IMG/VR virus record: IMGVR_UViG_3300045988_091802
Strand: one strand, 5' to 3'
Source: a virus
Length of the DNA: 49,646 bases
In this document: positions 1 through 49,646 of the stretch, one piece after another
Position numbering within the stretch: the first letter of the stretch is position 1
How the letters are laid out: the number at the start of each line of letters is the position of its first letter
The notes under the pieces: model-generated
Told to the model about the DNA's origin: nothing
Databases searched by the model: none
Seen by the model: the letters and a program-made list of their open reading frames with translations, nothing else
Made by a program: the position numbers and the translations under genes

Positions 1-99
1 ATTTTTTTGTACAAACTTCTTGAAGACCAAGAAACGGAACTTATAGGACGCTTTGACACGTTGAAAGAAGCGCAAGAAAAGGTAATAGAAATGACCGAG
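1..99. repeat. Terminal direct repeat: bases 1-99 are identical to 49548-49646
   Basis: Base-by-base comparison of the window ends shows identity. This fits a circular assembly or a short terminal redundancy. Confidence 0.95.
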
Positions 100-543
100 G
101 AAGACGAAGACACAACCGTTTTTGACTTCTACACGGACGAACAGGAATACGAAGAAATAACCGACCGCGTGAAATCATACGCCGACGCTTGCAAGGTATT
201 GGGCATAGAACCCATGAACGAGCAAAACATGAAAGCGCAAGGTTTCAGACCGGACGAAGTAGCCCGGCGCAAGTTGGAAACCATAACGGAAGCACTTAAC
301 GAGGGTTGGAAGCCGGATTGGAACAATACCGACCAATGCAAGTATTACCCTTACTTTTTCATAAGAGAAAACGCCAAAGCGGAAGGTACTGCCGGGCTCT
401 CGTATGCGGTTACGAAGTACGCGGCTACGGTTACGGGTGCGTACGTCGGCTCTCGGCTTTGCTTCCACGATAGCAACACGGCACGTTACGCCGGTAATAC
501 ATTCACGGAACTATACGAACAAATTTTAATAGAGAAGATATGA
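1..543 (+). CDS. DGR variable protein 2, a small non-structural paralog. The true start is ATG 49539 across the junction, giving 181 aa
   Basis: The frame is open from ATG 49539 through the junction to the stop at 543. It contains VR2 (..AGLSYAVTKYAATVTGAYVGSRLCF..). It is a paralog of 46775-47515, sharing SYxDACKVLG and GWKPDWNNxxQxKYYP. Confidence 0.8.
   Translation: MFLYKLLEDQETELIGRFDTLKEAQEKVIEMTEEDEDTTVFDFYTDEQEYEEITDRVKSYADACKVLGIEPMNEQNMKAQGFRPDEVARRKLETITEALNEGWKPDWNNTDQCKYYPYFFIRENAKAEGTAGLSYAVTKYAATVTGAYVGSRLCFHDSNTARYAGNTFTELYEQILIEKI
391..463 (+). repeat. DGR variable repeat VR2, aligned to TR 36433-36505
   Basis: Hand alignment of 73 bp gives 14 mismatches, 13 at TR adenines. 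The exception is TR T36459 versus G417. Confidence 0.85.
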
Positions 544-1433: not shown

Positions 1434-2366
1434 ATGAGCCAAGACAGCATTATAATTTACCGCGATATAAGGGAAGCCGTTATGGGTTTGCCGCCCGAAT
1501 TGTGTAAGGCGGTAATGAAGGTTATTTTTGACTACGCATTTGATGACATAGAACCCGAAGAAGATACGGACGCGGTTGTTAAAGGTTTCTATTTGGCGTT
1601 TAAGTCAAGATTTGACATGAATATAGCCCGGCTGGAGAAAAACAAGGCGAACGGGAAAAAGGGAGGAAACCCCAATTTCACAAAGGGGAAACGCAACCCG
1701 TATTATCCCAAAGAAGATAACCAACAGCAAGAAAAAAATAACCGAGAGATAACCGAGAATATAAGCGGAGATAACCCAAAGATAACCCAAAGCGGAAAGA
1801 AAGATAACCGAGATATAACCGAAGATAACGGAATAGATAAACGGGGTATAACCGAAAAACGGGCAAAATCGGATAAGCGAGGGATAACCGAAGATAACCC
1901 AAACATAACCGAGAATGAAGAAAAAGATAACCCAAACATAAGCGAAGATAACCTATATCTATATCCATATCAATATAATAATAATTCTGTTGTTGATGTT
2001 GTTGATGATAACGCGCACGCGCGAGAACGAGAAAACAACAAGAAGTTTTTGGATGAGTTCTTCAAGGAAACGAACCGGGCGCAAATTGAGGTAATTTGTA
2101 TGCAGCTTCACACAAACCCGGAAACTTTGCGGAGCGAAGCCGAAGAAGTCATAGCGGAATGGGAACTAACGGAAGCCACGCACAGCGATTACACCGAACA
2201 GGCGCGGCACTTGATAAACCAACTACGGATAAAATACCGTTCAAAAGCGAATAACGATGGAACAGCAAGAGCAAGAAAAGCAGCAGCCGAAACAACCCCA
2301 ACGGGTAAACTTGGAACTGTTTGCGAAGGCAATAAGGCAAAGAAGAAACTGCGAAGCACGATTTAG
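1434..2366 (+). CDS. Replication organizer/initiator-like protein with a DUF6291-like N-terminus and an internal DNxxIT repeat region
   Basis: The N-terminus (DSIIIYRDIREAV...NIARLEKNKANGKKGG) resembles phage replisome-organizer-like DUF6291 proteins. It sits directly upstream of a DnaC-like loader and carries an iteron-like array. Confidence 0.6.
   Translation: MSQDSIIIYRDIREAVMGLPPELCKAVMKVIFDYAFDDIEPEEDTDAVVKGFYLAFKSRFDMNIARLEKNKANGKKGGNPNFTKGKRNPYYPKEDNQQQEKNNREITENISGDNPKITQSGKKDNRDITEDNGIDKRGITEKRAKSDKRGITEDNPNITENEEKDNPNISEDNLYLYPYQYNNNSVVDVVDDNAHARERENNKKFLDEFFKETNRAQIEVICMQLHTNPETLRSEAEEVIAEWELTEATHSDYTEQARHLINQLRIKYRSKANNDGTARARKAAAETTPTGKLGTVCEGNKAKKKLRSTI
1717..1953 (+). repeat. 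Phased ATAACC iteron-like array; candidate origin iterons inside the replication gene
   Basis: 13 perfect ATAACC plus 4 one-mismatch copies in 237 bp. Spacing is about 10-12 bp or multiples of that. An AT-rich tract follows at 1953-1990. Confidence 0.6.
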
Positions 2367-14103: not shown

Positions 14104-16422
14104 ATGCCCGAAAAGGAAAACAACATAATAGCGCAGCTTAGAGGATTTGACGCGGAGCATTACGCGGCAACGGAACGTTACGCCCGGCAGATTGAGCGGC
14201 TATACAATACAGCTTGCGATGAATTTGCACGCATTGGCGCAGGAATAGAAGAAACGGAAACCGTGTTTTCATTCGACAAGCTGCCGAAAACGAGAAAACA
14301 GGCGCAAGGGATATTAACCCGGCTTGTAGGCAAAATGGAAGCCGTCATTACGACCGGGACAAAAGCCGAATGGTTGGCAGCTTGCAAAAAGAACGACGCT
14401 TTTATAGCCGCAATACTACGCACAGCCAAACTGACCAAAGAAGAAGTAGAGCAATACCAAAGCCGAAACCTCGAAGCACTTCGCACGTTCCAACGTCGTA
14501 AGGTTGAAGGATTGGGATTAAGCGAGAGGGTATGGAGGTATGCCGGAGAATTGAAAGACGCTATGGAATTGGGCATAGACGTAGCGTTAGGGGAAGGCAA
14601 GAGCGCACAAGAGTTAAGCCGGGATTTGCGGAGCTACCTCCAAGAACCGCACAGGCTTTATAGGCGTGTGCGTGACAAAGGCGGAAACTTGCGTTTGAGC
14701 AAGGCGGCTAAGTTGTACCATCCCGGACAAGGTGTTTACCGTTCTTCGGCAAAGAACGCGCAAAGGTTGGCTCGGACGGAGGTAAACATGGCATACCGGG
14801 AAAGCGAGTTTTTAAGATGGCAGAAGTTGGATTTTGTTGTAGGCTTGCGCGTCATGCTGAGCAACAACCACACTACGACCAACAGCAAAGGGGAAAAAAT
14901 TCCGCTTGTAGATATTTGCGACGAACTATGGGGCGATTACCCTAAAACGTTCAAGTTTACAGGTTGGCATCCGCAATGCCGTTGCTTTGTTGTGCCTATT
15001 TTGTCGGACTATGACGAATATAACCAAGACAGGGCGAACAGGCTAAAAGCGATTGTTAGGAAAGCGAAGTACGAAAGCCTTCCTTCACGCCGTACCATCA
15101 CGGACGTACCGGCTAAGTTTCGGGAATACATAGACAGTATTAAGGAACGAGCTAAGGGCTGGAAGTCTATGCCCTACTACATTCGGGATAATTTCAAAGG
15201 CGGTAAGATAGAAGGCGGACTAAACGCAAACATACCGACAAAGACGATGAACAACGTAAAACCGTGTACGGAATTTGACAGGGAAATAAACTACCTTAAA
15301 CGTTGGGCATACGCTTTGGGAGGCGATATGTCAAACATTGACGCGCTTAGAACCGCAGGAAACCGGGAAGCATTGGAAGCCGAAATAGAAAAGGTTAGAG
15401 ATGTCATGGACGGCAATTTAGACAAATGGCACGATGCGCAGAACGAACTAAGCCGGGTTATTACGGTAAGCCTAAAAGGGTATTCGGATATACAAAGCGA
15501 GTTCACGAAGATTTTGCAGGACAACGCATCTTCAACAAAAAGATACTACGGAGATTGTATTAGCCGCTTGAAACAGGCGGTAAAAGACGCTTTGGCTAAG
15601 TTGGCAAAGGCAAAGGAAGAAGAAGCCAAAAGCGGAGATAAGCCGCATAAGGCACTACTTAAAAACTACACTACCGAAGCGCAGGTAGATAAGACTTTCA
15701 AGGAGATAAACGACGGGCTTACCGAAAAATGGTTTGAGAACGGCGACCTTAAATTAGGAGTAGAAACGCATAGGGGTAACAACGGCTCTACGTGGATGGA
15801 CGGCAGAACCTACCTAACAACGGATAGGCTTGCACGGGTAAAATCGGCATTGGGCAAAATAGGGCAAGGAAAATCGGCGGAGATTACAGAACTTGAAGCC
15901 GACGCGATGGCTACATTTTGGCACGAGATTACGCACAACAGGAACAAGCGAGGGAACATGTATTTAACAGATACGCAAAGGGCATTTATGGAATTAGCCA
16001 ACGAGTTTGTAGCGCGAAAGTCTTTGCCGGAGTTTTACCGGGTATTGGGCTGCAAAGAAACGCCGCAAGCGCAATTCATAAGCAACCGCAATTCAACAGG
16101 CTATAACGACATGGTTAATAACTACGATTTGGTAATTAGGGAATTGGGACTTAACGCTGATAAGGCATTGGCGACCGTTAGGAAGAATTTGTTTAACGAA
16201 GTTTACTCAGACCAAGCAACCGGGCTAAAACAAGGTCTTATAGATGGAGGACTTAAACGGCTGGACGGAAAGAAAATAAAGGCTTCGGAGCTAAACAGCC
16301 TATTAAAAGCTATAAGGACAACTAAGGGAAGAGTTTATATGAACATAAACGGAGATTGGGTAAAGGAAAGCCGGGAAGAACAAATGGTTAAATGGTTGAA
16401 GAAAAACGGATATTTGGCATAA
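14104..16422 (+). CDS. Head morphogenesis protein (SPP1 gp7/Mu F-like) with a roughly 440-aa C-terminal extension carrying HExxH
   Basis: MuF hallmark GWHPQCRCFVVP is near residue 300. The C-terminal region contains FWHEITHNR...MELANE, which is zincin-like. Confidence 0.75.
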   Translation: MPEKENNIIAQLRGFDAEHYAATERYARQIERLYNTACDEFARIGAGIEETETVFSFDKLPKTRKQAQGILTRLVGKMEAVITTGTKAEWLAACKKNDAFIAAILRTAKLTKEEVEQYQSRNLEALRTFQRRKVEGLGLSERVWRYAGELKDAMELGIDVALGEGKSAQELSRDLRSYLQEPHRLYRRVRDKGGNLRLSKAAKLYHPGQGVYRSSAKNAQRLARTEVNMAYRESEFLRWQKLDFVVGLRVMLSNNHTTTNSKGEKIPLVDICDELWGDYPKTFKFTGWHPQCRCFVVPILSDYDEYNQDRANRLKAIVRKAKYESLPSRRTITDVPAKFREYIDSIKERAKGWKSMPYYIRDNFKGGKIEGGLNANIPTKTMNNVKPCTEFDREINYLKRWAYALGGDMSNIDALRTAGNREALEAEIEKVRDVMDGNLDKWHDAQNELSRVITVSLKGYSDIQSEFTKILQDNASSTKRYYGDCISRLKQAVKDALAKLAKAKEEEAKSGDKPHKALLKNYTTEAQVDKTFKEINDGLTEKWFENGDLKLGVETHRGNNGSTWMDGRTYLTTDRLARVKSALGKIGQGKSAEITELEADAMATFWHEITHNRNKRGNMYLTDTQRAFMELANEFVARKSLPEFYRVLGCKETPQAQFISNRNSTGYNDMVNNYDLVIRELGLNADKALATVRKNLFNEVYSDQATGLKQGLIDGGLKRLDGKKIKASELNSLLKAIRTTKGRVYMNINGDWVKESREEQMVKWLKKNGYLA

Positions 16423-34316: not shown

Positions 34317-34577
34317 ATGCAAAACAGAAACGGCGACTTAGTAAGCGCACAAATTTCGGTAGCCGGAACAGTGGACTTTTCCGGCGGAAACTTCCGAATG
34401 GACACGCCTTTTTGCTTGAAGAACGACGGCGAAACGGCGGTAGTGCTTGAAGTGAACCTTTGGGGAATGCCCGAAGGGGAATTTATAAGCACACGGTTTG
34501 AAACGGGTTGGAATCCCGAAATCATACGAGAGATTAAAAAGACAAGTTCAGCAACCGCCCTTGTTTGGGGCTATTAA
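34317..34577 (+). CDS. Hypothetical protein, first gene of the DGR operon
   Basis: 86-aa ORF directly downstream of P3. Confidence 0.55.
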   Translation: MQNRNGDLVSAQISVAGTVDFSGGNFRMDTPFCLKNDGETAVVLEVNLWGMPEGEFISTRFETGWNPEIIREIKKTSSATALVWGY

Positions 34578-34588
34578 AACATTTGGAT

Positions 34589-35920
34589 ATGGGCATATTT
34601 ATAGGTATTGGCAACACGAAGCCAGCATTTCCCTACGATTACTACTACGGGGTGCAAATCAACGTGAATGTAGCGGACACGGCACTAACGAGAGTTGGGC
34701 GACCGGAATTGCACGTAACGCTGCCGGTGCAGTCATTGATGCGCCGTTGTTTGATTAACGACAGCGGAGAGGTAGTAACATACTTGCACCCGACAGACAG
34801 CACCAAGACCGACACGGGAGCGACGGCAGACCTTACGGGAACTACCGGGCAAGTCATGGTAGAGATACCGAAGCACTACCGCAAATTCGAGTTTGACGGG
34901 ACGATCATAACCGCGCTTATTTCCTTATACAACCTTCCGGGCTTCCACGAAGTGCCGAAAATGTATATCAGTGCATACGAAGCGACCATAGACCGGACGG
35001 CAAGCGAAACGCCGAAACTTGCAAGCGTAGTAAACAAAACCGCAAACTTCCGGGGAGGTAACAACAATTCAGCGTGGGACGGTACATATAGAAGCCTGTT
35101 AGGACTTCCGGCAACACAAACAAGCCTTACCAACTTCCGCAAGTATGCGCGGAACAGGGGAGAAGCCGGGTTTAACGGTTGCGGTTGGAATTGCAACCTA
35201 TACGCCGCGCAAGTGGCTATGTATTGGCTTTACGTCATTGAGTACGCAAACCGCAACTGCCAAGCCGCATACAACGCAGAACCTACAAGCGAAGGGTACA
35301 AACAAGGCGGATTGGGCGACGGCGTTACCACTATAAACAGTGGGAAATGGAACACTTACAACAGCTATTACCCGTTTGTGCCTTGCGGCTTTACAAACAG
35401 TTTGGGAAACCGTACCGGCGTAGTAGAGTTCACGATGCCGGACGAATACGACACGGGGGTAGTAACCAAAGTAAACGTACCTTCATATAGAGGTGTGGAA
35501 AATCCGTTTGGGCATTTGTGGAAGTGGACGGACGGCTGCAAGTGCGAGATACAGAGCGACACGGACGGAGCTTTATCGAAGTTCTACGTTTGCTTAGACC
35601 CTTCCAAGTTCCAAGACAGTAGTTATAACGACTACGATATGCGCGGAGAATTGCCGAGAAAAGAGGGGTACGTTAAGCGCATGATGATAGGCGAATACGG
35701 CGACATCATGCCGACGGAGGTAGGCGCAAGTTCTACGACCCACTTTGCGGACTACTTCTATACCAATATACCGACTTCCGGCGCGGCTATGAGGGGTGTC
35801 TTGTTCGGTGGTGGCGCGTCTAACGGCGCGGGTGCCGGGCTCTCGTGTGCGCGTACGGGTAGCGCGGCTGCGTCTGCGGGTGCGTACTTCGGCTCTCGGC
35901 TTTGCTTTATCCCGGCGTAG
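34589..35920 (+). CDS. DGR variable (target) protein 1, a putative receptor-binding tail fibre with a C-terminal VR
   Basis: The C-terminus ..GVLFGGGASNGAGAGLSCARTGSAAASAGAYFGSRLCFIPA is encoded by VR1. Located after the tail tip genes. I prefer ATG 34589 over the TTG at 34565. Confidence 0.85.
   Translation: MGIFIGIGNTKPAFPYDYYYGVQINVNVADTALTRVGRPELHVTLPVQSLMRRCLINDSGEVVTYLHPTDSTKTDTGATADLTGTTGQVMVEIPKHYRKFEFDGTIITALISLYNLPGFHEVPKMYISAYEATIDRTASETPKLASVVNKTANFRGGNNNSAWDGTYRSLLGLPATQTSLTNFRKYARNRGEAGFNGCGWNCNLYAAQVAMYWLYVIEYANRNCQAAYNAEPTSEGYKQGGLGDGVTTINSGKWNTYNSYYPFVPCGFTNSLGNRTGVVEFTMPDEYDTGVVTKVNVPSYRGVENPFGHLWKWTDGCKCEIQSDTDGALSKFYVCLDPSKFQDSSYNDYDMRGELPRKEGYVKRMMIGEYGDIMPTEVGASSTTHFADYFYTNIPTSGAAMRGVLFGGGASNGAGAGLSCARTGSAAASAGAYFGSRLCFIPA
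35794..35906 (+). repeat. DGR variable repeat VR1, aligned to the full TR
   Basis: Hand alignment of 113 bp to 36393-36505 gives 25 mismatches, all at TR adenines. Confidence 0.9.
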
Positions 35921-35945: not shown

Positions 35946-35978
35946 CCCCAACCGCCGCGCCATTATTGGCGGTTGGGG
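35946..35978 (+). other. Perfect 11-bp stem hairpin downstream of VR1
   Basis: CCCCAACCGCC - 11 nt - GGCGGTTGGGG, about 40 nt after the end of VR1. Confidence 0.6.
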
Positions 35979-36007: not shown

Positions 36008-36367
36008 ATGAACGAAAATAACAATAACCGAAAGGAACAGCAGGAGGATGACGGCAGTCTGTCGTTTTTGGCGATACCGCAAGACGAAGGAAACAAGCAT
36101 TTCAACTGCCGGGAAACAACCCAGCAGAAACTAATCAACCTTACGTTTTGGGTTTGCGACTTCATAGAGGGAGTTAAAACGAAATTCGGCGCGGAACGCT
36201 TCTTAGTTAAGATAAAGAAGAACCGGGATGACAAAGACAGCGAAGCCGAAAAGTTCTTTACCAATTCAAGCGAAATAAAATACGTTTTGAAGGAAATAAA
36301 GAAACGGAACGCTTTCCCTCGCCGGGTTACCATGAGGGCAAGCGGAACGCGCTATTACTTCGAGTGA
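36008..36367 (+). CDS. Candidate DGR accessory protein, in the Avd position but not obviously Avd-like
   Basis: 119 aa, between the target gene and the TR. The basic C-terminus fits. The sequence does not look like a four-helix bundle to me. Confidence 0.45.
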   Translation: MNENNNNRKEQQEDDGSLSFLAIPQDEGNKHFNCRETTQQKLINLTFWVCDFIEGVKTKFGAERFLVKIKKNRDDKDSEAEKFFTNSSEIKYVLKEIKKRNAFPRRVTMRASGTRYYFE

Positions 36368-36392: not shown

Positions 36393-36505
36393 GGGTGTCT
36401 TGTTCGGTGGTAACGCGAATAACAGCGCGAATGCCGGGCTCTCGTATGCGAATACGAATAACACGGCTACGAATACGAATGCGAACATCGGCTCTCAGCT
36501 ATACT
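36393..36505 (+). repeat. DGR template repeat (TR)
   Basis: Adenine-rich. In the VR frame it reads GVLFGGNANNSANAGLSYANTNNTATNTNANIGSQ, with 10 AAY codons. It matches VR1, VR2 and VR3. Confidence 0.9.
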
Positions 36506-36626: not shown

Positions 36627-37661
36627 ATGAAAAGGTTGGGCAACCTATACGATAAAATTATAAGTTTGGAAAACTTACGGATCGCAGACAAGCGGGCTCG
36701 TAAGGGCAAACTTAACACCTACGGCGTTAAGGTACATGACCGGCACGCCGAAGCCGACCTTTTGGCTTTGCACGAAGAATTGAAGGCAGGAACTTACAAG
36801 ACTTCGGAATATAGCACCTTTTTTATTTACGAACCGAAAGAACGTGAGATTTTCAGACTACCGTACTTTCCCGACCGCATCGTACACCACGCAGTAATGA
36901 ACGTGTTAGAACCCGTATGGGTGTCCATATTCACGGCGGACACATACAGTTGCATCAAAGGGCGAGGAATACAGGCGGCAGCGGACAAGTTACGGCGCGT
37001 GATAGACAGGGACAAGCCCGGTTGCGCCTATTGTCTGAAAATTGACATACGGAAGTTTTACCCTTCCATCGACCACGCTATATTAAAGCGGATTGTTCGC
37101 CGGAAGATTAAGGACACACGGCTACTTAGACTTCTTGACGAAATAATAGACAGCGCGGACGGACTGCCCATCGGGAACTACCTAAGCCAATTCTTAGCAA
37201 ACCTCATGCTTGCGTACTTTGACCATTGGGTTAAAGAGACCAAGCGCGTAAGGTATTATTTCAGATACGCCGACGATATTGTAGTATTGCACAGCGACAA
37301 AAGGGTATTACGCGCCTTGCTTGCCGACTTTGAACGGTATTTGAACACCGAACTAAACCTGTATGTCAAAGACAACAAACAGATTTTCCCGGTAGCGAAA
37401 GACCACAAAGACAGGCACGGGCGCGGCATTGACTTTTTGGGATATGTGTTTTACCACAACGAAACACGGCTAAGAAAGCGTATCAAACAGAACTTTTGCC
37501 GGAAGGTAGACAAGTTGAGGAAGCGGAAGAAACCGATAGGCGAAGCGCAGTTCATGCAAGCCGTAGCCGCGTGGTGGGGATGGGCGAAACACAGCGATAG
37601 CGAGTATTTTATCAACAAGTTAAATAAAATTTCACCTTATGAAATCAAATTCAAACGTTAG
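36627..37661 (+). CDS. DGR reverse transcriptase
   Basis: RT motifs including the DGR-typical IGNYLSQ and the catalytic YADD (RYADDIVVL). 344 aa, 121 nt downstream of the TR. Confidence 0.9.
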   Translation: MKRLGNLYDKIISLENLRIADKRARKGKLNTYGVKVHDRHAEADLLALHEELKAGTYKTSEYSTFFIYEPKEREIFRLPYFPDRIVHHAVMNVLEPVWVSIFTADTYSCIKGRGIQAAADKLRRVIDRDKPGCAYCLKIDIRKFYPSIDHAILKRIVRRKIKDTRLLRLLDEIIDSADGLPIGNYLSQFLANLMLAYFDHWVKETKRVRYYFRYADDIVVLHSDKRVLRALLADFERYLNTELNLYVKDNKQIFPVAKDHKDRHGRGIDFLGYVFYHNETRLRKRIKQNFCRKVDKLRKRKKPIGEAQFMQAVAAWWGWAKHSDSEYFINKLNKISPYEIKFKR

Positions 37662-38022
37662 ACCGGCTATTATCCAAGATTTGGGTAACGGCTCATTCCA
37701 TTACAACTACAACGTAACGGAAAGGAAGATAGAAGACGAAGAAGTAGGCGAAAAGACTGTTTACGACTACGATACGGTACAGGTGTGGGAAAAGCCGACC
37801 TACGACAACCTTACACGCGCCATCATACGCAGCGAGATAGACGAAACCGAAGAATTTTCTTTGATTAACGACTACTACGCCGCGCAGTTGGGAGTAGAAA
37901 AGGACGAAGACCGCAAGACGAAAGCAGTAAACGACTACAAAGATTACCTCGCGCACGTTGCGGACATAAAACAGATGGTGAGGGACGACCTCGCTACGGT
38001 TGGGTTGGACGAAAGCGCATAG
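37639..38022 (+). CDS. Hypothetical acidic protein
   Basis: 127-aa ORF overlapping the 3' end of the RT gene by 23 nt. Confidence 0.5.
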   Translation: MKSNSNVRPAIIQDLGNGSFHYNYNVTERKIEDEEVGEKTVYDYDTVQVWEKPTYDNLTRAIIRSEIDETEEFSLINDYYAAQLGVEKDEDRKTKAVNDYKDYLAHVADIKQMVRDDLATVGLDESA

Positions 38023-40220: not shown

Positions 40221-41537
40221 TTACCCATTATTATCAGTTTTCCCGAAGTTGTCAAACCGTGCCATATTTTCGGCTTTTGCCGCATCTACTATTTTAATAT
40301 AAGGCTTCATAGCTTTATAGTCGCTGTGTCCCGTCCATTCCATTATAACCGAAGCAGGAATACCAAGGCGAAGCGCATTAACTATAAAAGTTCGCCTTCC
40401 GCAATGTGTGGTAAGAACCGCATATTTAGGTACTACAACCTCTTTGCGTTCACTACCACTATACGACACGACACTAACAAGCTCATCCAACCCGGCGATT
40501 TCGGCAGCTTCATGTAGATGCTCATTCATTTTTACGTTGCTTAATACGGGCAAAGCCTTATTTCCGGGCAAGTGTATTCCCTTGTATTTATCAAGTATTG
40601 CAAGAGCATAGCTATTTAGCTCAATATGTAGCCTATCGGTTGTTTTCTTTGTAACAATAGAGATATAAGGAGGAACGGCATCGCGTTTTACGTCAGAAGA
40701 TTTAAGCCGCGCTACGTCAGAATAACGCAACCCGGTAAAACAACAAAAACAAAACACATCGCGAACAGGAGGTAACGACGGTTTATTAGGGGGAAACTTG
40801 AAGTTCATAAAGTGCTGCAATTCGTCCCACGTCAAAAATATGACCTCTTTACAGTCCAATCCCTTGAAGCGTGGGCGATATTGCAAATGAGCAGCACCGG
40901 AGTAATAACCGTTAGCGGAAGCCCAACGCAAGAACCAACGAACGAAACCTACGTTTTTGGCGACCGTGGTATTAAGCTGTCCTTCTTCTTTTTGCAGATA
41001 CGACACAAAGGCGGCAAAGTCAGACTTTGAAAAATTATCTAAGGAGAGTTCCGGGCGAAAGTTCATTAAGTGATGTTTGATACTTGCAAATTTAGTATAG
41101 GTTGCTTTCGTCCAATTATTCGTAACACCCATTTCGGAAGTGAACCTATCAAAGACCTCGAAGAAGCCCGGCGATTGTTGCTGGGCTTCTTCTTTTTCAT
41201 CGGTAACATGCCGACCGATTGAAGCATAGAAAAGCGGCTTAAATTCTTTCGGCGTTGGCGTTCGGTGGTGTTCAAGTTCAAAACGCGTTAAGACTTCTTC
41301 GACCTTAGAAACCATATTAGAAAGACCCCTATTTATTTCGCCCGAAGTTTGCTTATAGCAATTCTTAGAGCCGAGCGTTACCCGTTGGCTTTCCTTATCC
41401 CATTTGTTAGCGTCAATTACATACCCGGAATGAATATCTATACGATACCCGGAATAACATACGCGCAAACGGATAGGAACGCTTTGGGCGTTCATACCTT
41501 CACGGGTTGATAGTTGAAACTTAACGCTATACTTCAT
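40221..41537 (-). CDS. int: Tyrosine recombinase/integrase (Bacteroidetes type, with an N-terminal arm-binding domain)
   Basis: Catalytic pattern ..GLRYSDV.., ..HCGRRTF.., ..GHSDYKAMKPYI... N-terminus is typical of Bacteroidetes integrases. Confidence 0.9.
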   Translation of the reverse strand: MKYSVKFQLSTREGMNAQSVPIRLRVCYSGYRIDIHSGYVIDANKWDKESQRVTLGSKNCYKQTSGEINRGLSNMVSKVEEVLTRFELEHHRTPTPKEFKPLFYASIGRHVTDEKEEAQQQSPGFFEVFDRFTSEMGVTNNWTKATYTKFASIKHHLMNFRPELSLDNFSKSDFAAFVSYLQKEEGQLNTTVAKNVGFVRWFLRWASANGYYSGAAHLQYRPRFKGLDCKEVIFLTWDELQHFMNFKFPPNKPSLPPVRDVFCFCCFTGLRYSDVARLKSSDVKRDAVPPYISIVTKKTTDRLHIELNSYALAILDKYKGIHLPGNKALPVLSNVKMNEHLHEAAEIAGLDELVSVVSYSGSERKEVVVPKYAVLTTHCGRRTFIVNALRLGIPASVIMEWTGHSDYKAMKPYIKIVDAAKAENMARFDNFGKTDNNG

Positions 41538-44694: not shown

Positions 44695-46755
44695 ATGAAT
44701 AAACAAGTAATCATTAAGCGTTTGACGCTTGTAAACTTCAAGGGTTTACGGAATGTCGCAATAGATTTTAGCGACAATGTTACAACCATTAGCGGACGTA
44801 ACGGAACTGGTAAAACAACTATCAAAGACGCTTTTAGTTGGCTTCTTTGGGGTAAGAACAGCGAAGGCGACACCGATAGCAAGTTTGGCATCAAGACCAA
44901 CGACGCGGACGGTAATTTTATTCCCGACCTCGAACACGGCGTTACGGGTGTGTTTGAAATCATAGACAAAGAAACGGGAGCGGTTGAAACCGTAGAACTT
45001 CGCCGCGTACTTGTAGAAGAATGGAAAGTACCCAACGGGGAAACAAAGCGTGTGCTGAAAGGACACCACACCGACTTTTTCTATAACGGTGTGCCATTGA
45101 AGACGAAAGCGGAATACGAAGCGCGGATTAACGCCATCATTCCCGAAGCAGTCTTTAAGATTATTACAGACCCCTACTATTTCCTTACGCTTCATTGGAA
45201 GGCACAGCGTGAAATGCTTTTGCAGATAGCAGGGAACGTAAGCGAAGAAGAAGTAGCGAGAGGTAGCGAACGTTTTGCCCTATTGCTTGCGCAGCTTACC
45301 GGAAAATCATTGGAAGACTATAAGCGAGAGGTAGCCGCAAAGAAAGCCAAGGTAAACGAACAACTCGAAAAGATACCGACAGCCATAAACGCAATTACAC
45401 AGGTTACGCCGGAAGCACCGGATTACGAAGCGTTGGAGAAAGAAAAGGCAGCTTTGGAAGTGGAGCTTACACAAATAGACGAATCGGTAGCATCGGAAGC
45501 GGAAGCCAACCGGATAGCCTACGAGAAAGCATCGAAGACGCAAGCGGAGATTAACGCGAAACGGACACAGCAACAGAAACTGTTATTTGAAGCCAAAGAC
45601 AAGGCGAGAAGCGAAGCGTATAAGAAAAACGAAGCCTACAACAAGGCAGAACGTGAACTGCGCCAAGTGGAATCAGACCAAACGAACGAAGAACGGCGGT
45701 ACAACGCGGAGCGTTCCCGGCTTCAAGATGACATCAGACGCACGGAAGAAAACAAAAGCAGATACAAGGCGCAACAGGACGAACTGCGCGAAAAGTGGTA
45801 TTCGGTAAGTGCGGAAGAATTTACAGACACTTCCAACCTTGTATGTCCGTTGTTCAAACACGTATGCGCAGACCGGGAAGCATTAGAAAAATACGAAGCA
45901 GACCGGGAAGCAGCTCGAAACAAGTTCTACGAAGACAAACAGGCGCGGCTCGACAACATAAACAAGACCGGAACGCAGCTTACCCAAACGATAGAGGAAC
46001 AAGATGCGGAAATAGCACGGCTTCAAGGATTGTTAGCCGAAACGGAAGAAAAGCACAAAACCGAAGTTTCCGGCTTCGCGGAAAAGCGCGAACAGTTGAA
46101 AAAGACGATGGACGCTAACCCACGTGTAAGCACAGAACCGAATATCAAAGGGGAAGACATACCCGAATGGGTTACGCTTCAAAGCGAGATAGAAACGCTT
46201 TCCGCCGGGCTTCCGAAACAGGATAGCACAACAGCGACCAATACCTCCGTACTTCGCAAGCGTAAGGCAGAAATAACCGCACGGCTTGACGAAGTAAAAC
46301 AGAAATTGAACATTCGCGCAACCATTGAAACCAACGAAAAGCGGATTAAGGAGCTTAAAGCGGAAGCGGAAACGCTGGCGCAGGAAAAAGCCAACTTGCA
46401 GACCGAAGAAACCACAATAGACGATTTTGTTACGGCGCAGATGAACGAAGTAGAACGGCGCGTAAACGCATTGTTTAGCCGGGTACAGTTCAAGATGTAC
46501 CGGACGCAGATAGAAGACGCGAAGCAAGTACCGGACTGCATTTGCTACATAGACGGCGTGAAGTATTCAGACAAGAACGCCGCCGGGAAAGTAAACGCCG
46601 GGCTTGACGTGATTAACACGCTTTGCGCGTTCCACGGGGTAAGCGCACCTATTTTCGTGGATAACGCAGAAAGCATCAACGAATTTATACCGGTAAACAG
46701 CCAACTCGTAAAGTTGGTGGTAACTACCGAAGACTTCAAGGTAAACAATTTCTAA
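44695..46755 (+). CDS. SMC/SbcC/Rad50-like AAA ATPase (recombination)
   Basis: N-terminal Walker A (ISGRNGTGKTT), long coiled coil, C-terminal ..IFVDNAESI... Confidence 0.75.
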   Translation: MNKQVIIKRLTLVNFKGLRNVAIDFSDNVTTISGRNGTGKTTIKDAFSWLLWGKNSEGDTDSKFGIKTNDADGNFIPDLEHGVTGVFEIIDKETGAVETVELRRVLVEEWKVPNGETKRVLKGHHTDFFYNGVPLKTKAEYEARINAIIPEAVFKIITDPYYFLTLHWKAQREMLLQIAGNVSEEEVARGSERFALLLAQLTGKSLEDYKREVAAKKAKVNEQLEKIPTAINAITQVTPEAPDYEALEKEKAALEVELTQIDESVASEAEANRIAYEKASKTQAEINAKRTQQQKLLFEAKDKARSEAYKKNEAYNKAERELRQVESDQTNEERRYNAERSRLQDDIRRTEENKSRYKAQQDELREKWYSVSAEEFTDTSNLVCPLFKHVCADREALEKYEADREAARNKFYEDKQARLDNINKTGTQLTQTIEEQDAEIARLQGLLAETEEKHKTEVSGFAEKREQLKKTMDANPRVSTEPNIKGEDIPEWVTLQSEIETLSAGLPKQDSTTATNTSVLRKRKAEITARLDEVKQKLNIRATIETNEKRIKELKAEAETLAQEKANLQTEETTIDDFVTAQMNEVERRVNALFSRVQFKMYRTQIEDAKQVPDCICYIDGVKYSDKNAAGKVNAGLDVINTLCAFHGVSAPIFVDNAESINEFIPVNSQLVKLVVTTEDFKVNNF

Positions 46756-46774: not shown

Positions 46775-47515
46775 ATGAATTACAAAGAAATCAAGTCCTA
46801 CGAGGACGCTTGTAAGGTTTTGGGCGTTCAGCCCATCAGTGAAAACGCGGTAGCAGCTTTCCCGGCAGAAGACCGAAAAAGTATGTTAGCTTACCATAAG
46901 CTGACAATAATAGCACGAGCCATTAACGGAGGGTGGAAGCCGGATTGGAACAACAGAAGCCAATACAAGTATTACCCAGTATTCTACTACGAACATGCCG
47001 GGCTCTCGTATGCGGCTGCGAATTACGCGGCTTCGAATACGGTTGCGAACTTCGGCTCTCGGCTTTGCTTTCAAACGGAAGCGATGAGCGACTACGCCGC
47101 CGCCACGTTCGCCGACCTATACACGGACTTCTATTGCCTTCCGGCTTCGGTGGAGAAAGAAGAAAGCCAACAGAGTAACAAGCAGCCCGGCGACTTCTTG
47201 AAAATGGCAACTGATATTATAGAAACACAGTTGCAGCCGTTGGCGCAGGAAAAGAAAACGCGCGGTGTTGTGCTGATTGCTTGCGACGCGGACACGACGG
47301 ACGAAAAAGGAGAAAGCGCAACCGGGGCAATTATTGGAATTGTCGGAAACGGAAAAGCGTTGGCACACGGAGTAGCCGAACTTATGACGCGGAAAGAATC
47401 CGCACCGCTTGTAAAACAGGCTACGGAACTTATAGCGATGCAAAGACTACAAGAGCGGATTAAGCAAGAGGGCTCGAAGTTCCTCGCGGAATTATTCACA
47501 CAACAAGAAAAATAG
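46775..47515 (+). CDS. DGR variable protein 3, a small non-structural paralog with the VR in mid-protein
   Basis: Contains VR3 (..AGLSYAAANYAASNTVANFGSRLCF..) at residues about 75-99 of 246. Paralog of the junction-spanning protein. Confidence 0.8.
   Translation: MNYKEIKSYEDACKVLGVQPISENAVAAFPAEDRKSMLAYHKLTIIARAINGGWKPDWNNRSQYKYYPVFYYEHAGLSYAAANYAASNTVANFGSRLCFQTEAMSDYAAATFADLYTDFYCLPASVEKEESQQSNKQPGDFLKMATDIIETQLQPLAQEKKTRGVVLIACDADTTDEKGESATGAIIGIVGNGKALAHGVAELMTRKESAPLVKQATELIAMQRLQERIKQEGSKFLAELFTQQEK
46997..47069 (+). repeat. DGR variable repeat VR3, aligned to TR 36433-36505
   Basis: Hand alignment of 73 bp gives 12 mismatches, all at TR adenines. Confidence 0.88.
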
Positions 47516-47517
47516 AA

Positions 47518-48357
47518 ATGACCATGTGCAATATAAAAGAGTTACCAAGTGCAGCCATAGAAGAAGCCAAAGGCAAGTTTGAAATGGCTTGCAAAGAAGC
47601 TATGACGTTGGAAATAGTGGGAAACGTTGCGGCAGCGTTCAACGCGGTAGGAGTTGTAACGCTACTTCGCGAAGCATTGACAAACGACATAATGGACGCA
47701 GTTTTTATGCCGCTTATGAACACTAAAATAGGCTTTATGACCGACCACACGGGAAAGCCAAACAGCAAGGGACAGACTTTGCCGCTTTATTCGCGCGACG
47801 TTGTACGCGATTGCATTATAGACGCGGTTATTATTGGCTTGCTTCCAACAGGAAACCAATTTAACATATTGGCGGAAAGGATGTACCCAACGAAGGAAGG
47901 ATATACCGCGCTTCTTAAAAAATTGGGCGTTAGGTATATTATTGAGATTGGGCAAGACAAGAGCCAAAGCCCACAATACGCGGAACTTGCCTGTAAGATT
48001 AACTACGAGTACAACGGGGAAAAGAACAGTTTTACCGTGAACACAACCGTAGCAAAGAACGCTTACAGCAGCAACGACCAGATACGGGGGAAAGCGGAAC
48101 GCAAGGCGAAGAAAGCGTTATACGAATACATTACCGGCTCGGACTTCGGGGACGGGGACGAATCAAGTACGGTAGTGGTGGATGCTGTTGCAGTTGAAAT
48201 TAGGGATGAAGCGAACAAGGGCGAAGCTATCGGGATAGACCAAGCGACGGAGGAAAAAAACGTTATTGCAGAGGATAAACCGCAGCCACAACCCCAGCCG
48301 CGACCACAACCGCAGAAGGCAAACGAAAGAAGCAACAACGCTAAACCGGCTTTCTGA
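47518..48357 (+). CDS. Putative recombination (single-strand annealing-like) protein
   Basis: Called on position only: it lies between the SbcC-like ATPase and the MBL hydrolase. Has a PQ-repeat tail. Confidence 0.3.
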   Translation: MTMCNIKELPSAAIEEAKGKFEMACKEAMTLEIVGNVAAAFNAVGVVTLLREALTNDIMDAVFMPLMNTKIGFMTDHTGKPNSKGQTLPLYSRDVVRDCIIDAVIIGLLPTGNQFNILAERMYPTKEGYTALLKKLGVRYIIEIGQDKSQSPQYAELACKINYEYNGEKNSFTVNTTVAKNAYSSNDQIRGKAERKAKKALYEYITGSDFGDGDESSTVVVDAVAVEIRDEANKGEAIGIDQATEEKNVIAEDKPQPQPQPRPQPQKANERSNNAKPAF

Positions 48358-48359
48358 TT

Positions 48360-49118
48360 ATGGAACTTACCGTTATATCTTCAAGCAGCGAAGGCAACTC
48401 CTACGTTTTACAGAACGCAGGGGAAGCCTTGCTGCTCGAAGCCGGTAAGCCGTTCAAGGACACATTAGCGGCATTGGGCGGCAATTTACGCAAGGTGGTA
48501 GGATGCTTGATAACGCACGAACACGGCGACCACGCCGGACGCATAAGCGAGGTACTTAATTACGCCGTACCTGTATTCGCTTCACAAGGAACGATAGAAG
48601 GAGCGGCAAAGTACATAAAGAGCAACTACCAACCAAACGCGATTAAAGCCATTGGCGGAGGTTACGAACGGTTGAACTTGGGCGGATTTACGGTTATACC
48701 GTTCCCGGCAAAGCACGATGCGGCAGAACCGCTCGGCTTCTACATTTGGCACGAAGAAACAGGCGGTATCTTGTTCGCTACCGACACCTACTATCTTCCT
48801 TGCACGTTCAAGGGGTTAAGCAACATTCTTATAGAGTGCAACTATGACCCGGATATATTGGCGCGTAGGGTTGCAAACGGAGATATACCGGAAGTTCTGC
48901 AGGAACGGGTAAGACGCAGCCACCTCAGTTATTACACTTGTTTAGACGCATTGAGGGCGAACGACCTTACAGCGGTAAACAACATTGTATTAATCCATAT
49001 CAGCGACGGAAACGGCGACGGTGTGGCATTTCGGGAAGGCATAGCGAAAGCAACCGGTAAAACGGTGCATATAGCGAAGCCCGGATTAAAAATCAAATTC
49101 AACAAAACACCATTTTAG
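48360..49118 (+). CDS. Metallo-beta-lactamase fold hydrolase/nuclease
   Basis: HxHxDH motif (ITHEHGDHAG). Confidence 0.75.
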   Translation: MELTVISSSSEGNSYVLQNAGEALLLEAGKPFKDTLAALGGNLRKVVGCLITHEHGDHAGRISEVLNYAVPVFASQGTIEGAAKYIKSNYQPNAIKAIGGGYERLNLGGFTVIPFPAKHDAAEPLGFYIWHEETGGILFATDTYYLPCTFKGLSNILIECNYDPDILARRVANGDIPEVLQERVRRSHLSYYTCLDALRANDLTAVNNIVLIHISDGNGDGVAFREGIAKATGKTVHIAKPGLKIKFNKTPF

Positions 49119-49120
49119 CT

Positions 49121-49519
49121 ATGCTCAAAGGATTTGATAAAGAGACCCAACCGCTTACCGAGTACGAAGAAAAGGAACTTTTACCCGTCATATTAGCCGG
49201 GTTAAAGACCAAGACAGGAAAGGACAACGCGGTAACAAACCGAACGATTGTAATGCGGCTTACCATAGCCGGGTACAAGATAGACGAAGCCCGATGCAGG
49301 AAGATAATAAACCACATACGGACTACCGACGCTTTACCCGGATTGATAGCTACCTCCGGCGGCTACTTTTTGGCAACGACCGAAAATGAACTGATGGACT
49401 ACGAAGAAAGCCTTTTAGGGCGCGAAAACGCAATAAAAGAAGTGCGTTTAGCCATAGCAAGGCAACGTAGGATATTGTACGGCGACGCGCAGAAGCCGAA
49501 AGAAGGAACATTGTTTTAA
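49121..49519 (+). CDS. Hypothetical protein
   Basis: 132-aa ORF packed tightly after the MBL gene. Confidence 0.55.
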   Translation: MLKGFDKETQPLTEYEEKELLPVILAGLKTKTGKDNAVTNRTIVMRLTIAGYKIDEARCRKIINHIRTTDALPGLIATSGGYFLATTENELMDYEESLLGRENAIKEVRLAIARQRRILYGDAQKPKEGTLF

Positions 49520-49538: not shown

Positions 49539-49646
49539 ATGAAAAAGATTTTTTTGTACAAACTTCTTGAAGACCAAGAAACGGAACTTATAGGACGCTT
49601 TGACACGTTGAAAGAAGCGCAAGAAAAGGTAATAGAAATGACCGAG
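49539..49646 (+). CDS. 5' end of DGR variable protein 2, continuing at base 100 of the window through the circular junction
   Basis: ATG 49539 (MKKIFLYKLLEDQ...). Bases 49548-49646 duplicate 1-99. Confidence 0.75.
   Translation, partial: MKKIFLYKLLEDQETELIGRFDTLKEAQEKVIEMTE

What the first reader, a model, noticed from the sequence alone, without database searches (positions are those of the whole stretch)
46775..47515. The two remote DGR targets are paralogs of a compact domain family in the early operon; possible diversified intracellular binders
The junction-spanning protein (residues about 60-170) and 46775-47515 (residues about 7-115) share a colinear core: (V/I)KSY(A/E)DACKVLG(I/V)(E/Q)P ... 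GWKPDWNNxxQxKYYPxF ... AGLSYA-[VR]-GSRLCF ... Y..(N/A)TF(T/A)(E/D)LY. VR1's protein shares only the VR-encoded part. Neither paralog has a signal peptide or TM segment, and both are co-oriented with replication and recombination genes. My inference is that one TR/RT diversifies a virion receptor-binding protein and also two early-expressed soluble proteins. Those could be evolving binders of host factors, for example defence or restriction components. I know of no characterised system of that kind, but I cannot verify novelty without database searches.
Basis: inference. Interest (0 to 1): 0.8.

Follow-up and report, generated by a model that had tools for sequence, protein, structure and literature searches.

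The report
Small hypervariable DGR proteins, phage early genes
Two small soluble proteins encoded among this gut phage's early replication genes are rewritten by the same mutagenic retroelement that diversifies its tail protein. They belong to a large, unnamed family that this kind of retroelement targets across Bacteroidota phages.

Summary
ORF 46775-47515 (p3) and the junction ORF (pj) are paralogs: 48% identity over 118 aa, E=3e-29. Each carries a 76-nt variable repeat (VR) matching the 3' part of the single template repeat (TR, 36393-36505), with mismatches at TR adenines apart from one T-to-G in VR2.

Both VRs are diversified in nature. Near-identical metagenomic copies differ only at the TR-adenine codons, and p3's 90% cluster has 1,085 members.

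The ~120-aa domain is a very large family: 3,656 50%-identity clusters, no Pfam or NCBIfam model, only phrog_11581 (unknown function). It is itself a DGR target family. In 46 of 75 Bacteroidota genome loci, usually 2-4 tandem copies sit beside a TR with A-only mismatches, and 41 of the 75 have a related reverse transcriptase within 10 kb.

A confident AlphaFold model (pLDDT 90) is mostly helical and matches nothing in the PDB, including C-type lectins. Similarity to the tail target is limited to 26 VR-encoded residues.

The proteins lack signal peptides and TM segments and sit in early recombination/replication modules. An intracellular binder role is plausible but untested. Distal non-structural DGR targets in gut phages were already noted (Benler 2021; Nature 2025). 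This family, its fold and its tandem cassettes were not found in the papers checked.

The parts
46775..47515 (+). p3: 246-aa remote DGR variable protein. N-terminal compact domain (aa 1-122), linker, then a C-terminal domain of ~100 aa.
   Evidence: ORF. phrog_11581, E=2.6e-45. 295 homologs. AF2 models.
46775..47140 (+). Compact VR-bearing domain of p3 (aa 1-122).
   Evidence: AF2 pLDDT 90, pTM 0.83; helices at 9-16, 23-26, 31-51, 102-111 and 113-120; the VR loop has lower confidence. No PDB fold match.
46994..47069 (+). VR3: variable repeat inside p3 (aa 74-99).
   Evidence: Matches TR 36430-36505 with A-only mismatches. Natural hypervariability lies exactly at the TR-adenine codons.
49539..49646 (+). 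pj, 5' part of the junction-spanning gene. It continues at window position 1; 49548-49646 duplicates 1-99.
   Evidence: Terminal repeat. Translation, 183 aa. The exact protein is in public databases as DAP71462.1.
1..543 (+). pj, remainder of the gene: acidic N-terminal extension followed by the compact domain (aa ~55-183).
   Evidence: phrog_11581, E=1.1e-31. 48% identity to p3.
388..463 (+). VR2: variable repeat inside pj (aa 133-158).
   Evidence: A-specific mismatches to TR 36430-36505, plus one T-to-G. Thirteen near-identical natural copies differ only here.
36393..36505 (+). Template repeat (TR). The full 113 nt serves VR1. The 3' 76 nt (36430-36505) serve VR2 and VR3.
   Evidence: Repeat family D1. 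25 of 25 mismatches to VR1 are at TR adenines. 22 of 23 adenines in the 3' part are at codon positions 1-2.
36627..37661 (+). DGR reverse transcriptase.
   Evidence: Pfam RVT_1, E=2.8e-18. phrog_1423, E=1.8e-126. IGNYLSQ and YADD motifs in the sequence.
36008..36367 (+). Small ORF between the VR1 target and the TR, in the position of an accessory gene. Not recognisable as Avd.
   Evidence: phrog_19665 (unknown function), E=6e-35; no Pfam hit. Weak similarity to ORFs downstream of the RT in L040 and L088.
34565..35920 (+). VR1 target: tail protein, 451 aa.
   Evidence: phrog_5302 'tail protein', E=4e-140. 1,324 homologs, some in clusters of 1,189-1,934 members.
35794..35906 (+). VR1.
44695..46755 (+). 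Upstream neighbour: SbcC/Rad50-like ABC ATPase. Conserved synteny partner of p3.
   Evidence: phrog_77; Pfam AAA_23 and SMC_N. Synteny.
47518..49519 (+). Three genes between p3 and pj: a 279-aa unknown, an MBL-fold hydrolase (48360-49118) and a 132-aa unknown.
   Evidence: phrog_392; Pfam Lactamase_B; a weak sub-threshold Apyc1 hit. Conserved synteny.

Best explanation
Shown:
- This ~49.5-kb temperate Bacteroidota siphophage has one diversity-generating retroelement (TR plus RT).
- The full 113-nt template rewrites the C-terminus of a tail protein (VR1).
- The 3' 76 nt of the template also rewrite an internal loop of two small paralogous proteins, p3 and pj. They lie about 10 and 13 kb away in the early recombination/replication gene block.
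- p3 and pj belong to a very large, unannotated family specific to Bacteroidota and their relatives. The family is a dedicated DGR variable-protein scaffold, usually found as 2-4 tandem genes directly upstream of TR-RT in prophage early regions.
- The window is a rearranged form of a recurring design: one TR with a long match to a tail-type target and a 3'-only match to the compact proteins.
- The scaffold is predicted to be a soluble, mainly helical ~120-aa domain. It displays a ~25-residue loop with about 13-16 codons that hold a TR adenine (seven of them AAY codons), giving roughly 1e12-1e13 possible sequences.

Inferred:
- The proteins lack export signals, sit in early non-structural modules in several unrelated phage backbones, and keep an invariant scaffold under purifying selection.
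- They most likely act inside the infected or lysogenic cell as diversified ligand binders in phage-host or phage-phage conflict. They might neutralise, or sense, fast-evolving host defence or competitor proteins.
- What they bind and when they are expressed is unknown.
For: - Paralogy.
- TR/VR adenine specificity and shared reading frame.
- Active diversification: 53 close p3 homologs vary at aa 79-93 only. Fifteen members of a 1,085-member 90% cluster are identical except aa 74-93. Thirteen pj copies are identical except aa 133-152.
- Family size and lack of annotation: 3,656 clusters, 1,874 of them at E<=1e-10. No Pfam, NCBIfam or PADLOC model.
- DGR linkage of the family: 41 of 75 genome loci have an RT 49-63% identical to the window's, beginning a few to ~220 nt downstream of the last of the (mostly 2-4) tandem copies in nearly all of them. 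All 13 inspected gaps hold a 55-80-nt TR with 8-18 A mismatches and 0-1 other for nearly every copy (one weaker match in L073). 90 of 95 family genes in RT loci have a TR partner.
- Independent viral set: 24 of 79 loci have TR and RT. Another 34 are early modules like the window's. In the remainder examined (14 two-copy loci), the loop is hypervariable between otherwise near-identical contigs.
- Recurrence of the design: L057 has one TR matching a 383-aa tail-type target over 115 nt and two compact proteins over 78-81 nt. L029 has SbcC..MBL-VP-VP-TR-RT.
- Fold: AF2 pLDDT 90, no PDB hit (best E=3.6, TM<0.3). BFVD hits are all uncharacterised gut phage proteins. hhalign to the tail-target family aligns only 26 VR columns.
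- Soluble: only 4 of 148 family representatives have any hydrophobic 19-mer.
- Early-module context.
Against: - Function is not tested in any way. There is no expression, localisation or interaction evidence.
- Gene position is only a proxy for timing. Phage structural proteins also lack signal peptides, so virion association is not excluded.
- The same TR serves a tail protein, which could mean the small proteins recognise a related (surface?) ligand.
- The fold call rests on one AlphaFold model whose VR loop is only moderately confident (pLDDT ~67) and on Foldseek. A very reduced C-type lectin variant cannot be excluded, as Roux et al. (PMC8144416) predicted for uncharacterised VR domains.
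- DGR linkage was examined in 154 best-scoring loci, not in all 3,656 clusters.
- No inverted repeat (>=6 bp arms) lies downstream of VR2 or VR3, unlike the 11-bp one after VR1.
Confidence: 0.6

Rival explanations
1. The compact proteins are virion-associated or otherwise extracellular ligand binders. They would be accessory receptor-binding or adhesion modules that dock onto the particle through their variable N- or C-terminal extensions. They would be diversified together with the tail protein to track host surface variation.
For: The same TR diversifies a tail protein in the window and in L057, and a tail-protein homolog lies 2.7 kb from the cassette in L063. Family members carry different appended segments that could be docking modules. 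Most characterised phage DGR targets are receptor-binding proteins (PMC8144416; tentaclins, PMC10743442).
Against: In every backbone examined, the genes sit in early recombination/replication or transposition modules, not in the structural block. There are no phage-structural PHROG or Pfam hits.
Confidence: 0.15
2. The domain is simply a minimal C-type lectin fold. The proteins would then be ordinary, if small, members of the known CLec class of DGR variable proteins rather than a new scaffold.
For: The VR-encoded segment (AGLS...GSRLCF) aligns with the VR of the tail-type target, Prob 95.8%. It resembles CLec-type VRs (own knowledge). Wu et al. kept such targets in the CLec class on VR similarity alone (PMC5758913). 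Roux et al. expect uncharacterised VR domains to be CLec variants (PMC8144416).
Against: A confident AF2 model (pLDDT 90) has five helices and essentially no beta-sheet. It gives no Foldseek match to any PDB entry, CLec proteins included. There are no Pfam FGE-sulfatase, DUF1566 or Mtd hits. Profile similarity stops at the 26 VR columns. The VR is followed by two helices instead of ending the protein.
Confidence: 0.25
3. VR2 and VR3 are collateral homing sites with no adaptive value. The paralogs would merely carry an IMH-like sequence (GGCTCTCGGCTTTGCTT, encoding GSRLCF) that attracts cDNA.
For: The GSRLCF-coding 3' end is conserved across the family and resembles the 3' end of VR1.
Against: The family is found with its own TR-RT across the phylum. 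TR adenines are placed at codon positions 1-2 in the family's reading frame. The scaffolds are invariant while the loops vary, and frames stay open in hundreds of variants. This is the signature of selected diversification.
Confidence: 0.03

Closest known systems
Bordetella phage BPP-1 DGR (Brt/TR/Avd with the Mtd tail-fibre target)
   Same: One RT and TR perform adenine-specific mutagenic retrohoming into a VR. The window's VR1 at the C-terminus of a tail protein is the classical arrangement.
   Different: The window's TR also serves two remote internal VRs in small non-structural-module proteins. No Avd is recognisable (no Pfam hit). The compact targets show no detectable C-type lectin fold.
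Distal non-structural DGR targets in gut Bacteroidota phages: Quimbyvirus (Benler 2021, PMC8008677) and four cultured prophage species (Nature 2025, PMC12629997)
   Same: Phage DGRs with a tail-module VR plus a second VR far from the RT. The second VR lies outside the structural genes, near DNA-modification or counter-defence genes. Both papers interpret this as part of the phage-host arms race.
   Different: Those reports describe one distal target. In Quimbyvirus it is annotated as a C-type lectin protein. The family, fold and distribution were not analysed. Here there are two paralogous distal targets from a defined phylum-wide family with tandem TR-adjacent cassettes. Homology to the published targets could not be tested because their sequences were not at hand.
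Multi-target / remote-target cellular DGRs (Treponema denticola TvpA family, Legionella LdtA; survey in PMC5758913)
   Same: One TR feeds several VRs, some non-adjacent. The 5' boundary of homing differs between targets of one TR.
   Different: Those targets are surface lipoproteins or secreted CLec/FGE-type proteins of cells. The proteins here are phage-encoded, lack export signals and are about 120-250 aa.
Tentaclins (PMC10743442)
   Same: A second DGR target class in gut phages with the VR-bearing domain at the N-terminus.
   Different: Tentaclins are an N-terminal C-type lectin followed by Ig-like domains and are proposed to be receptor-binding. p3 and pj have no Ig or CLec signal and lie in early modules.
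DGR-diversified putative cytoplasmic antigen sensors of multicellular bacteria (bioRxiv 10.1101/2023.09.22.558884)
   Same: The idea that DGRs can diversify intracellular recognition proteins involved in conflict or defence.
   Different: This comparison rests on the abstract seen and on own knowledge; the paper was not read. Those sensors are described as large cellular multidomain proteins with CLec VR domains fused to signalling modules. The proteins here are tiny phage proteins without effector domains.

Membership tests
Diversity-generating retroelement (system) | Reverse transcriptase of the DGR type | tested here: met
   Pfam RVT_1, E=2.8e-18. phrog_1423, E=1.8e-126. The sequence shows the IGNYLSQ ([LIV]GxxxSQ) and YADD motifs.
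Diversity-generating retroelement (system) | TR/VR repeat pairs differing only at TR adenines | tested here: met
   VR1: 25 of 25 mismatches at A. VR2 and VR3 over 76 nt: all at A except one T-to-G in VR2.
Diversity-generating retroelement (system) | Hypervariability of VR codons in natural populations with an invariant scaffold | tested here: met
   p3; pj. p3's 90% cluster holds 1,085 distinct sequences.
Diversity-generating retroelement (system) | Avd-type accessory protein | tested here: inconclusive
   ORF 36008-36367 sits in the Avd position but has no Pfam hit, only phrog_19665 of unknown function.
Diversity-generating retroelement (system) | Target-recognition elements at the VR 3' end (IMH, downstream hairpin) | tested here: inconclusive
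   All VRs end in GGCTCTCGGCTTTGCTT, against GGCTCTCAGCTATACTG in the TR. An 11-bp inverted repeat follows VR1 only. None follows VR2 or VR3.
C-type lectin-fold DGR variable proteins (Mtd/TvpA/TaqVP class) | C-type lectin fold of the VR-bearing domain | tested here: not met
   The AF2 model (pLDDT 90) is helical and has no Foldseek PDB match (best E=3.6, TM<0.3). Caveat: the loop confidence is ~67 and only Foldseek was available.
C-type lectin-fold DGR variable proteins (Mtd/TvpA/TaqVP class) | Sequence-profile match to FGE-sulfatase, DUF1566 or Mtd domains | tested here: not met
   No Pfam hit for p3, pj or nine diverse members. No PDB sequence hit with family profiles.
C-type lectin-fold DGR variable proteins (Mtd/TvpA/TaqVP class) | VR at the extreme C-terminus of the protein | tested here: not met
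   The VR lies at aa 74-99 of 246 (p3) and aa 133-158 of 183 (pj). Two helices of the same domain follow it.
C-type lectin-fold DGR variable proteins (Mtd/TvpA/TaqVP class) | VR peptide of the CLec-type pattern (...G-x-R-L-x-F end) | tested here: met
   The 26 VR columns align with the VR of the tail-type target family, hhalign Prob 95.8%.
phrog_11581 (PHROG family, unknown function) | Significant profile match over the domain | tested here: met
   pj E=1.1e-31 and p3 E=2.6e-45.
Tentaclins | N-terminal C-type lectin domain followed by Ig-like domains | tested here: not met
   No Ig or CLec signal in Pfam or Foldseek. The p3 C-terminal domain is predicted as a beta-hairpin plus helices.
Known anti-phage defence systems (PADLOC) | Match of p3/pj or their neighbours to a defence-system model | tested here: not met
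   p3, pj, the 279-aa and 132-aa proteins and the MBL hydrolase have no hit. The SbcC-like ATPase hits mainly through its generic N-terminal P-loop region; two weak, gappy longer matches go to LmuB (E~1e-12) and AriA.

The most novel reading that the evidence does not exclude
The compact ~120-aa domain is a third structural scaffold for DGR hypervariation, distinct from C-type lectin and Ig-like folds. Bacteroidota phages would use tandem arrays or dispersed copies of it as an intracellular, antibody-like repertoire of small binders. These would be diversified in step with the tail receptor-binding protein, to neutralise or sense rapidly evolving host-defence or rival-phage proteins.
Probability: 0.3. 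Interest if true: 0.9.

Novelty: new variant of a known kind. Interest (0 to 1): 0.72.

Why it matters
DGRs are the only known natural system of targeted protein hypermutation in prokaryotes. Almost everything known about their function concerns surface or receptor-binding proteins built on the C-type lectin fold.

A phylum-wide family of tiny, soluble, early-module phage proteins is different in three ways. They are dedicated DGR targets. Their predicted fold matches nothing solved. They are often diversified by the same template as the tail protein.

This would extend DGR biology to intracellular recognition. It also gives a compact (~120 aa), naturally evolvable binder scaffold of biotechnological interest.

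It makes one open question directly testable: what do the distal, non-structural DGR targets noted in abundant gut phages actually do? The family is defined, the variable positions are mapped, and cultured Bacteroides prophages with distal VRs now exist.

Tried and rejected
- DNA (megablast) and protein (tblastn) searches of the INPHARED phage collection with the early region and with p3 found nothing. The head-morphogenesis protein found only distant Porphyromonas and Riemerella phages.
- The full-length p3 model (pLDDT 75) gave only noise in Foldseek PDB.
- Family profiles and the tail-target profile found no PDB sequence relatives. The tail target's own C-type lectin nature therefore could not be confirmed here.
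- I first read the 'SGFGFS...VGSRLCF' loops of most family members as non-DGR. I also tried to use 90%-cluster sizes of such members as a negative control. Those members were singletons, so the control was uninformative. The reading itself was overturned when their genomic loci showed adjacent TR-RT.
- An exact-pattern scan for TR/VR copies in IMG/VR was too strict: 7 stretches only.
- Look-ups of two diverse members returned contigs too short to be useful.
- The first attempt at a genome scan failed because the alignment was too diverse.
- I considered a defence-system reading of the SbcC-like ATPase + p3 + MBL block. It was rejected: PADLOC hits to the ATPase are mostly its generic N-terminal P-loop (two weak, gappy longer matches to LmuB and AriA), and the neighbours have none.
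- The Apyc1 (anti-Pycsar) similarity of the MBL protein is below Pfam's threshold in the window (15.9 against 50 bits).
- Searches for DNA hairpins downstream of VR2 and VR3 were negative.
- Literature searches found no description of this family.

Full report
**1. What is in the window**

The window is a circularly redundant contig. Positions 1-99 repeat 49548-49646, giving a 49,547-bp genome.

It is a temperate siphophage. It encodes an integrase (40221-41537, minus strand), large terminase, portal, major head protein, tape-measure protein, Dit-like protein and large tail proteins. The closest database relatives of its genes are from Bacteroides, Phocaeicola and gut metagenomes.

It carries one DGR:
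- The RT is 36627-37661. It matches RVT_1 and phrog_1423 and has the IGNYLSQ and YADD motifs.
- The 113-nt template repeat (TR) is 36393-36505.
- An unannotated small ORF (36008-36367) sits in the accessory-gene position.
- VR1 is 35794-35906, at the C-terminus of a phrog_5302 tail protein. All 25 mismatches to the TR are at TR adenines.

**2. Check of the observation**

The junction ORF (49539..49547 joined to 1..543, 183 aa, 'pj') and ORF 46775-47515 (246 aa, 'p3') align colinearly. A family HMM finds only these two copies in the window.

Each holds a 76-nt repeat (VR2 388-463, VR3 46994-47069). These match only the 3' part of the TR (36430-36505), in the same reading frame as VR1. Differences are at TR adenines apart from one T-to-G in VR2.

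The tail protein shares only the VR-encoded stretch with them. BLASTP aligns 23 residues and profile-profile comparison aligns 26 columns.

Neither paralog has a hydrophobic segment.

From 43742 across the junction to about 6208 the genes are co-oriented and tightly packed. They are: a GerE-type regulator, DUF3853, an SbcC-like ATPase, p3, a 279-aa unknown, an MBL hydrolase, a 132-aa unknown, pj, a 281-aa unknown, DUF6291, a DnaC-like loader, DUF4406, a PAPS-reductase-like protein and SSB.

**3. Both remote VRs are active in nature**

- Among 53 close p3 homologs, column entropy peaks at residues 79, 81, 83, 84, 88, 90, 92 and 93. These are the AAY and TAT codons of the TR.
- One 90%-identity cluster of p3 holds 1,085 distinct sequences. 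Fifteen members that were read are identical over 246 residues except at residues 74-93 and a few isolated single substitutions.
- Thirteen natural pj copies are likewise identical apart from residues 133-152 and three isolated substitutions.
- In the 3' part of the TR, 22 of 23 adenines sit at codon positions 1-2. No stop codon can arise at the AAY and TAY codons. The theoretical repertoire is about 1e12-1e13 peptides.

**4. What the domain is**

p3 and pj match phrog_11581 (unknown function). Otherwise they have no Pfam, NCBIfam or PADLOC family.

A profile search of 1.84 billion cluster representatives found 3,656 clusters at E<=1e-3 and 1,874 at E<=1e-10. Nearly all match only the N-terminal ~120 residues. 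Typical members are 115-190 aa and some have two domains.

With 149 diverse sequences, AlphaFold gives a confident model (pLDDT 90, pTM 0.83). It has helices at 9-16, 23-26, 31-51, 102-111 and 113-120. A long irregular excursion between them carries the W-rich motif and the VR loop, whose pLDDT is about 67.

Foldseek finds no PDB match (best E=3.6, TM<0.3), so no C-type lectin and no Ig match. In BFVD it matches only uncharacterised proteins of gut siphophages, podophages, myophages and crAss-like phages.

**5. The decisive result: the family is a DGR target family**

A scan of one genome per GTDB species returned 75 loci. They come from Bacteroides, Phocaeicola, Prevotellaceae, Rikenellaceae, Flavobacterium, Chryseobacterium, Elizabethkingia, Dyadobacter, Pedobacter, Chitinophagaceae, Niastella, and Ignavibacteria/Chlorobi.

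- In 41 loci an RT 49-63% identical to the window's lies within 10 kb. In nearly all of them it begins a few to ~220 nt downstream of the last family copy, and most hold two to four tandem copies.
- In all 13 gaps inspected there is a 55-80-nt TR. It matches the loop-coding part of nearly every tandem gene with 8-18 adenine mismatches and 0-1 others (one weaker match in L073).
- Overall, 46 of 75 loci have such a TR. In loci with an RT, 90 of 95 family genes have a TR partner.
- Of the other 29 loci, 20 are early modules like the window's, where the RT is expected more than 10 kb away. Where the loop could be extracted (all but a few genes), it has the DGR-type sequence pattern.

An independent scan of IMG/VR gave 79 loci:
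- 24 have TR plus RT.
- 34 are early modules like the window's.
- 21 have no TR, RT, SbcC or MBL hit within 10 kb. The 14 two-copy loci among them belong to another lineage whose two copies are near-identical between contigs except for a hypervariable loop.

My earlier impression that most members are 'non-DGR' was therefore wrong.

The cassettes lie in early regions of several backbones:
- next to AAA_22 (MuB-like) ATPases, with an S24-type repressor and Mu F / virion-morphogenesis genes nearby;
- next to DnaG-type primases;
- in Flavobacterium L029, directly after an SbcC-like ATPase and MBL hydrolase. That is the position p3 and pj occupy in the window.

In Rikenellaceae L057 one TR matches a 383-aa tail-type target over 115 nt. 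It matches two compact proteins over only its 3' 78-81 nt. This is the window's pattern, but with all parts adjacent. The window is thus a dispersed version of a recurrent design.

**6. How it most likely works**

Shown:
- one TR/RT;
- three VRs;
- adenine-specific differences;
- ongoing diversification of both small proteins;
- an invariant scaffold;
- no export signals;
- early-module placement conserved across backbones.

Established knowledge: DGR mutagenic retrohoming copies TR RNA into adenine-mutagenised cDNA that replaces the VR. The 3' end is fixed by the IMH. The 5' end is set by homology, which explains why the compact proteins use only the 3' 76 nt. One natural p3 allele (P0274) shows the boundary three codons further 5'.

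Inferred: the proteins are soluble ligand binders acting inside the cell, plausibly in counter-defence or exclusion.

My estimates:
- about 0.9 that they are dedicated, active DGR variable proteins of a new family;
- about 0.45-0.5 that they act intracellularly in conflict;
- about 0.15 that they are virion-associated binders;
- about 0.25 that the fold will prove to be a reduced C-type lectin.

**7. Comparison with what is known**

The DGR machinery is canonical. Remote and multiple targets are known from Treponema and Legionella and from the survey in PMC5758913.

Distal, non-structural targets in gut Bacteroidota phages near counter-defence genes were noted for Quimbyvirus (PMC8008677) and for four cultured prophage species (PMC12629997).

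I found no description of three things in the papers searched:
- the compact family itself;
- its tandem [VP]n-TR-RT cassettes across Bacteroidota;
- a VR-bearing domain with no detectable C-type lectin or Ig similarity.

Large surveys state that annotated VR domains are systematically C-type lectin and that VRs are C-terminal (PMC8144416; bioRxiv 10.1101/2024.11.15.621889). Roux et al. also note that their method misses remote targets.

**8. Verdict**

The function remains unproven. I rate it a new variant of a known kind, interest 0.72.

Noticed in passing
window 1717-1952: Degenerate ~11-nt direct repeats (GATAACC[G/C]A..., families D2 and D6) lie inside ORF 1434-2366 (DUF6291), just upstream of the DnaC-like gene. 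They look like iterons and may mark the replication origin.
   Followed up: no
window 1-99 and 49548-49646: An exact 99-nt terminal direct repeat shows the contig is a circular or permuted 49,547-bp genome. The pj gene spans the junction.
   Followed up: yes
window 35946-35978: An 11-bp perfect inverted repeat (CCCCAACCGCC / GGCGGTTGGGG) lies ~40 nt downstream of VR1. It could be a DGR target-recognition cruciform or a terminator. No equivalent follows VR2 or VR3, which are nevertheless diversified.
   Followed up: partly
window 409-417 (VR2 codons ACG AAG TAC): VR2 carries one non-adenine difference from the TR (AAT to AAG). This is a point mutation acquired since the last homing event.
   Followed up: partly
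protein P0274 (p3 cluster), aligned to window 46985-46996: One natural allele reads YCAAAGLS instead of YYENAGLS. This is consistent with cDNA integration three codons further 5' into the TR (AGC GCG AAT), so the 5' homing boundary varies.
   Followed up: partly
protein P0114 (pj-type), aligned to window 334-395: This pj-type protein has p3-type residues just upstream of the VR (NRSQYKYYPVFYYEN). That suggests gene conversion or recombination between the two paralogs.
   Followed up: no
proteins P0107 and P0111 (Bacteroides thetaiotaomicron), aligned to window ~47050 onward: These p3 homologs are frameshifted immediately after the VR and truncated to ~144 aa. They may be casualties of imprecise homing.
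   Followed up: no
loci L021-L088, directly downstream of the RT; window 36008-36367 and 37639-38022: A ~99-aa ORF overlapping the RT stop codon is conserved in 32 of 39 tandem cassettes and has no Pfam hit. The window's ORF 36008-36367 is weakly similar to ORFs downstream of the RT in L040 and L088. Window ORF 37639-38022 matches the post-RT ORF of L057 (E=2e-27). These may be non-Avd DGR accessory proteins.
   Followed up: partly
window 14104-16422: A 772-aa head-morphogenesis (SPP1 gp7 / Mu F-like) protein also matches a Bxa-type ADP-ribosyltransferase PHROG (phrog_16625, E=3.5e-77). It may be a virion-delivered toxin or effector domain.
   Followed up: no
window 48360-49118: The MBL-fold hydrolase between p3 and pj has a weak hit to anti-Pycsar Apyc1 (PF23023, 15.9 bits against a cut-off of 50). 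Homologs in related prophages are flagged for the same family. It could be a counter-defence nuclease or a recombination exonuclease.
   Followed up: partly
window 47190-47512 (p3 aa ~140-246): The C-terminal domain of p3 is predicted as a helix, a beta-hairpin and three helices. In the family search it appeared apart from the full-length p3 type in only one representative (P0131) and had no fold match. It may be the partner-docking or effector part.
   Followed up: partly
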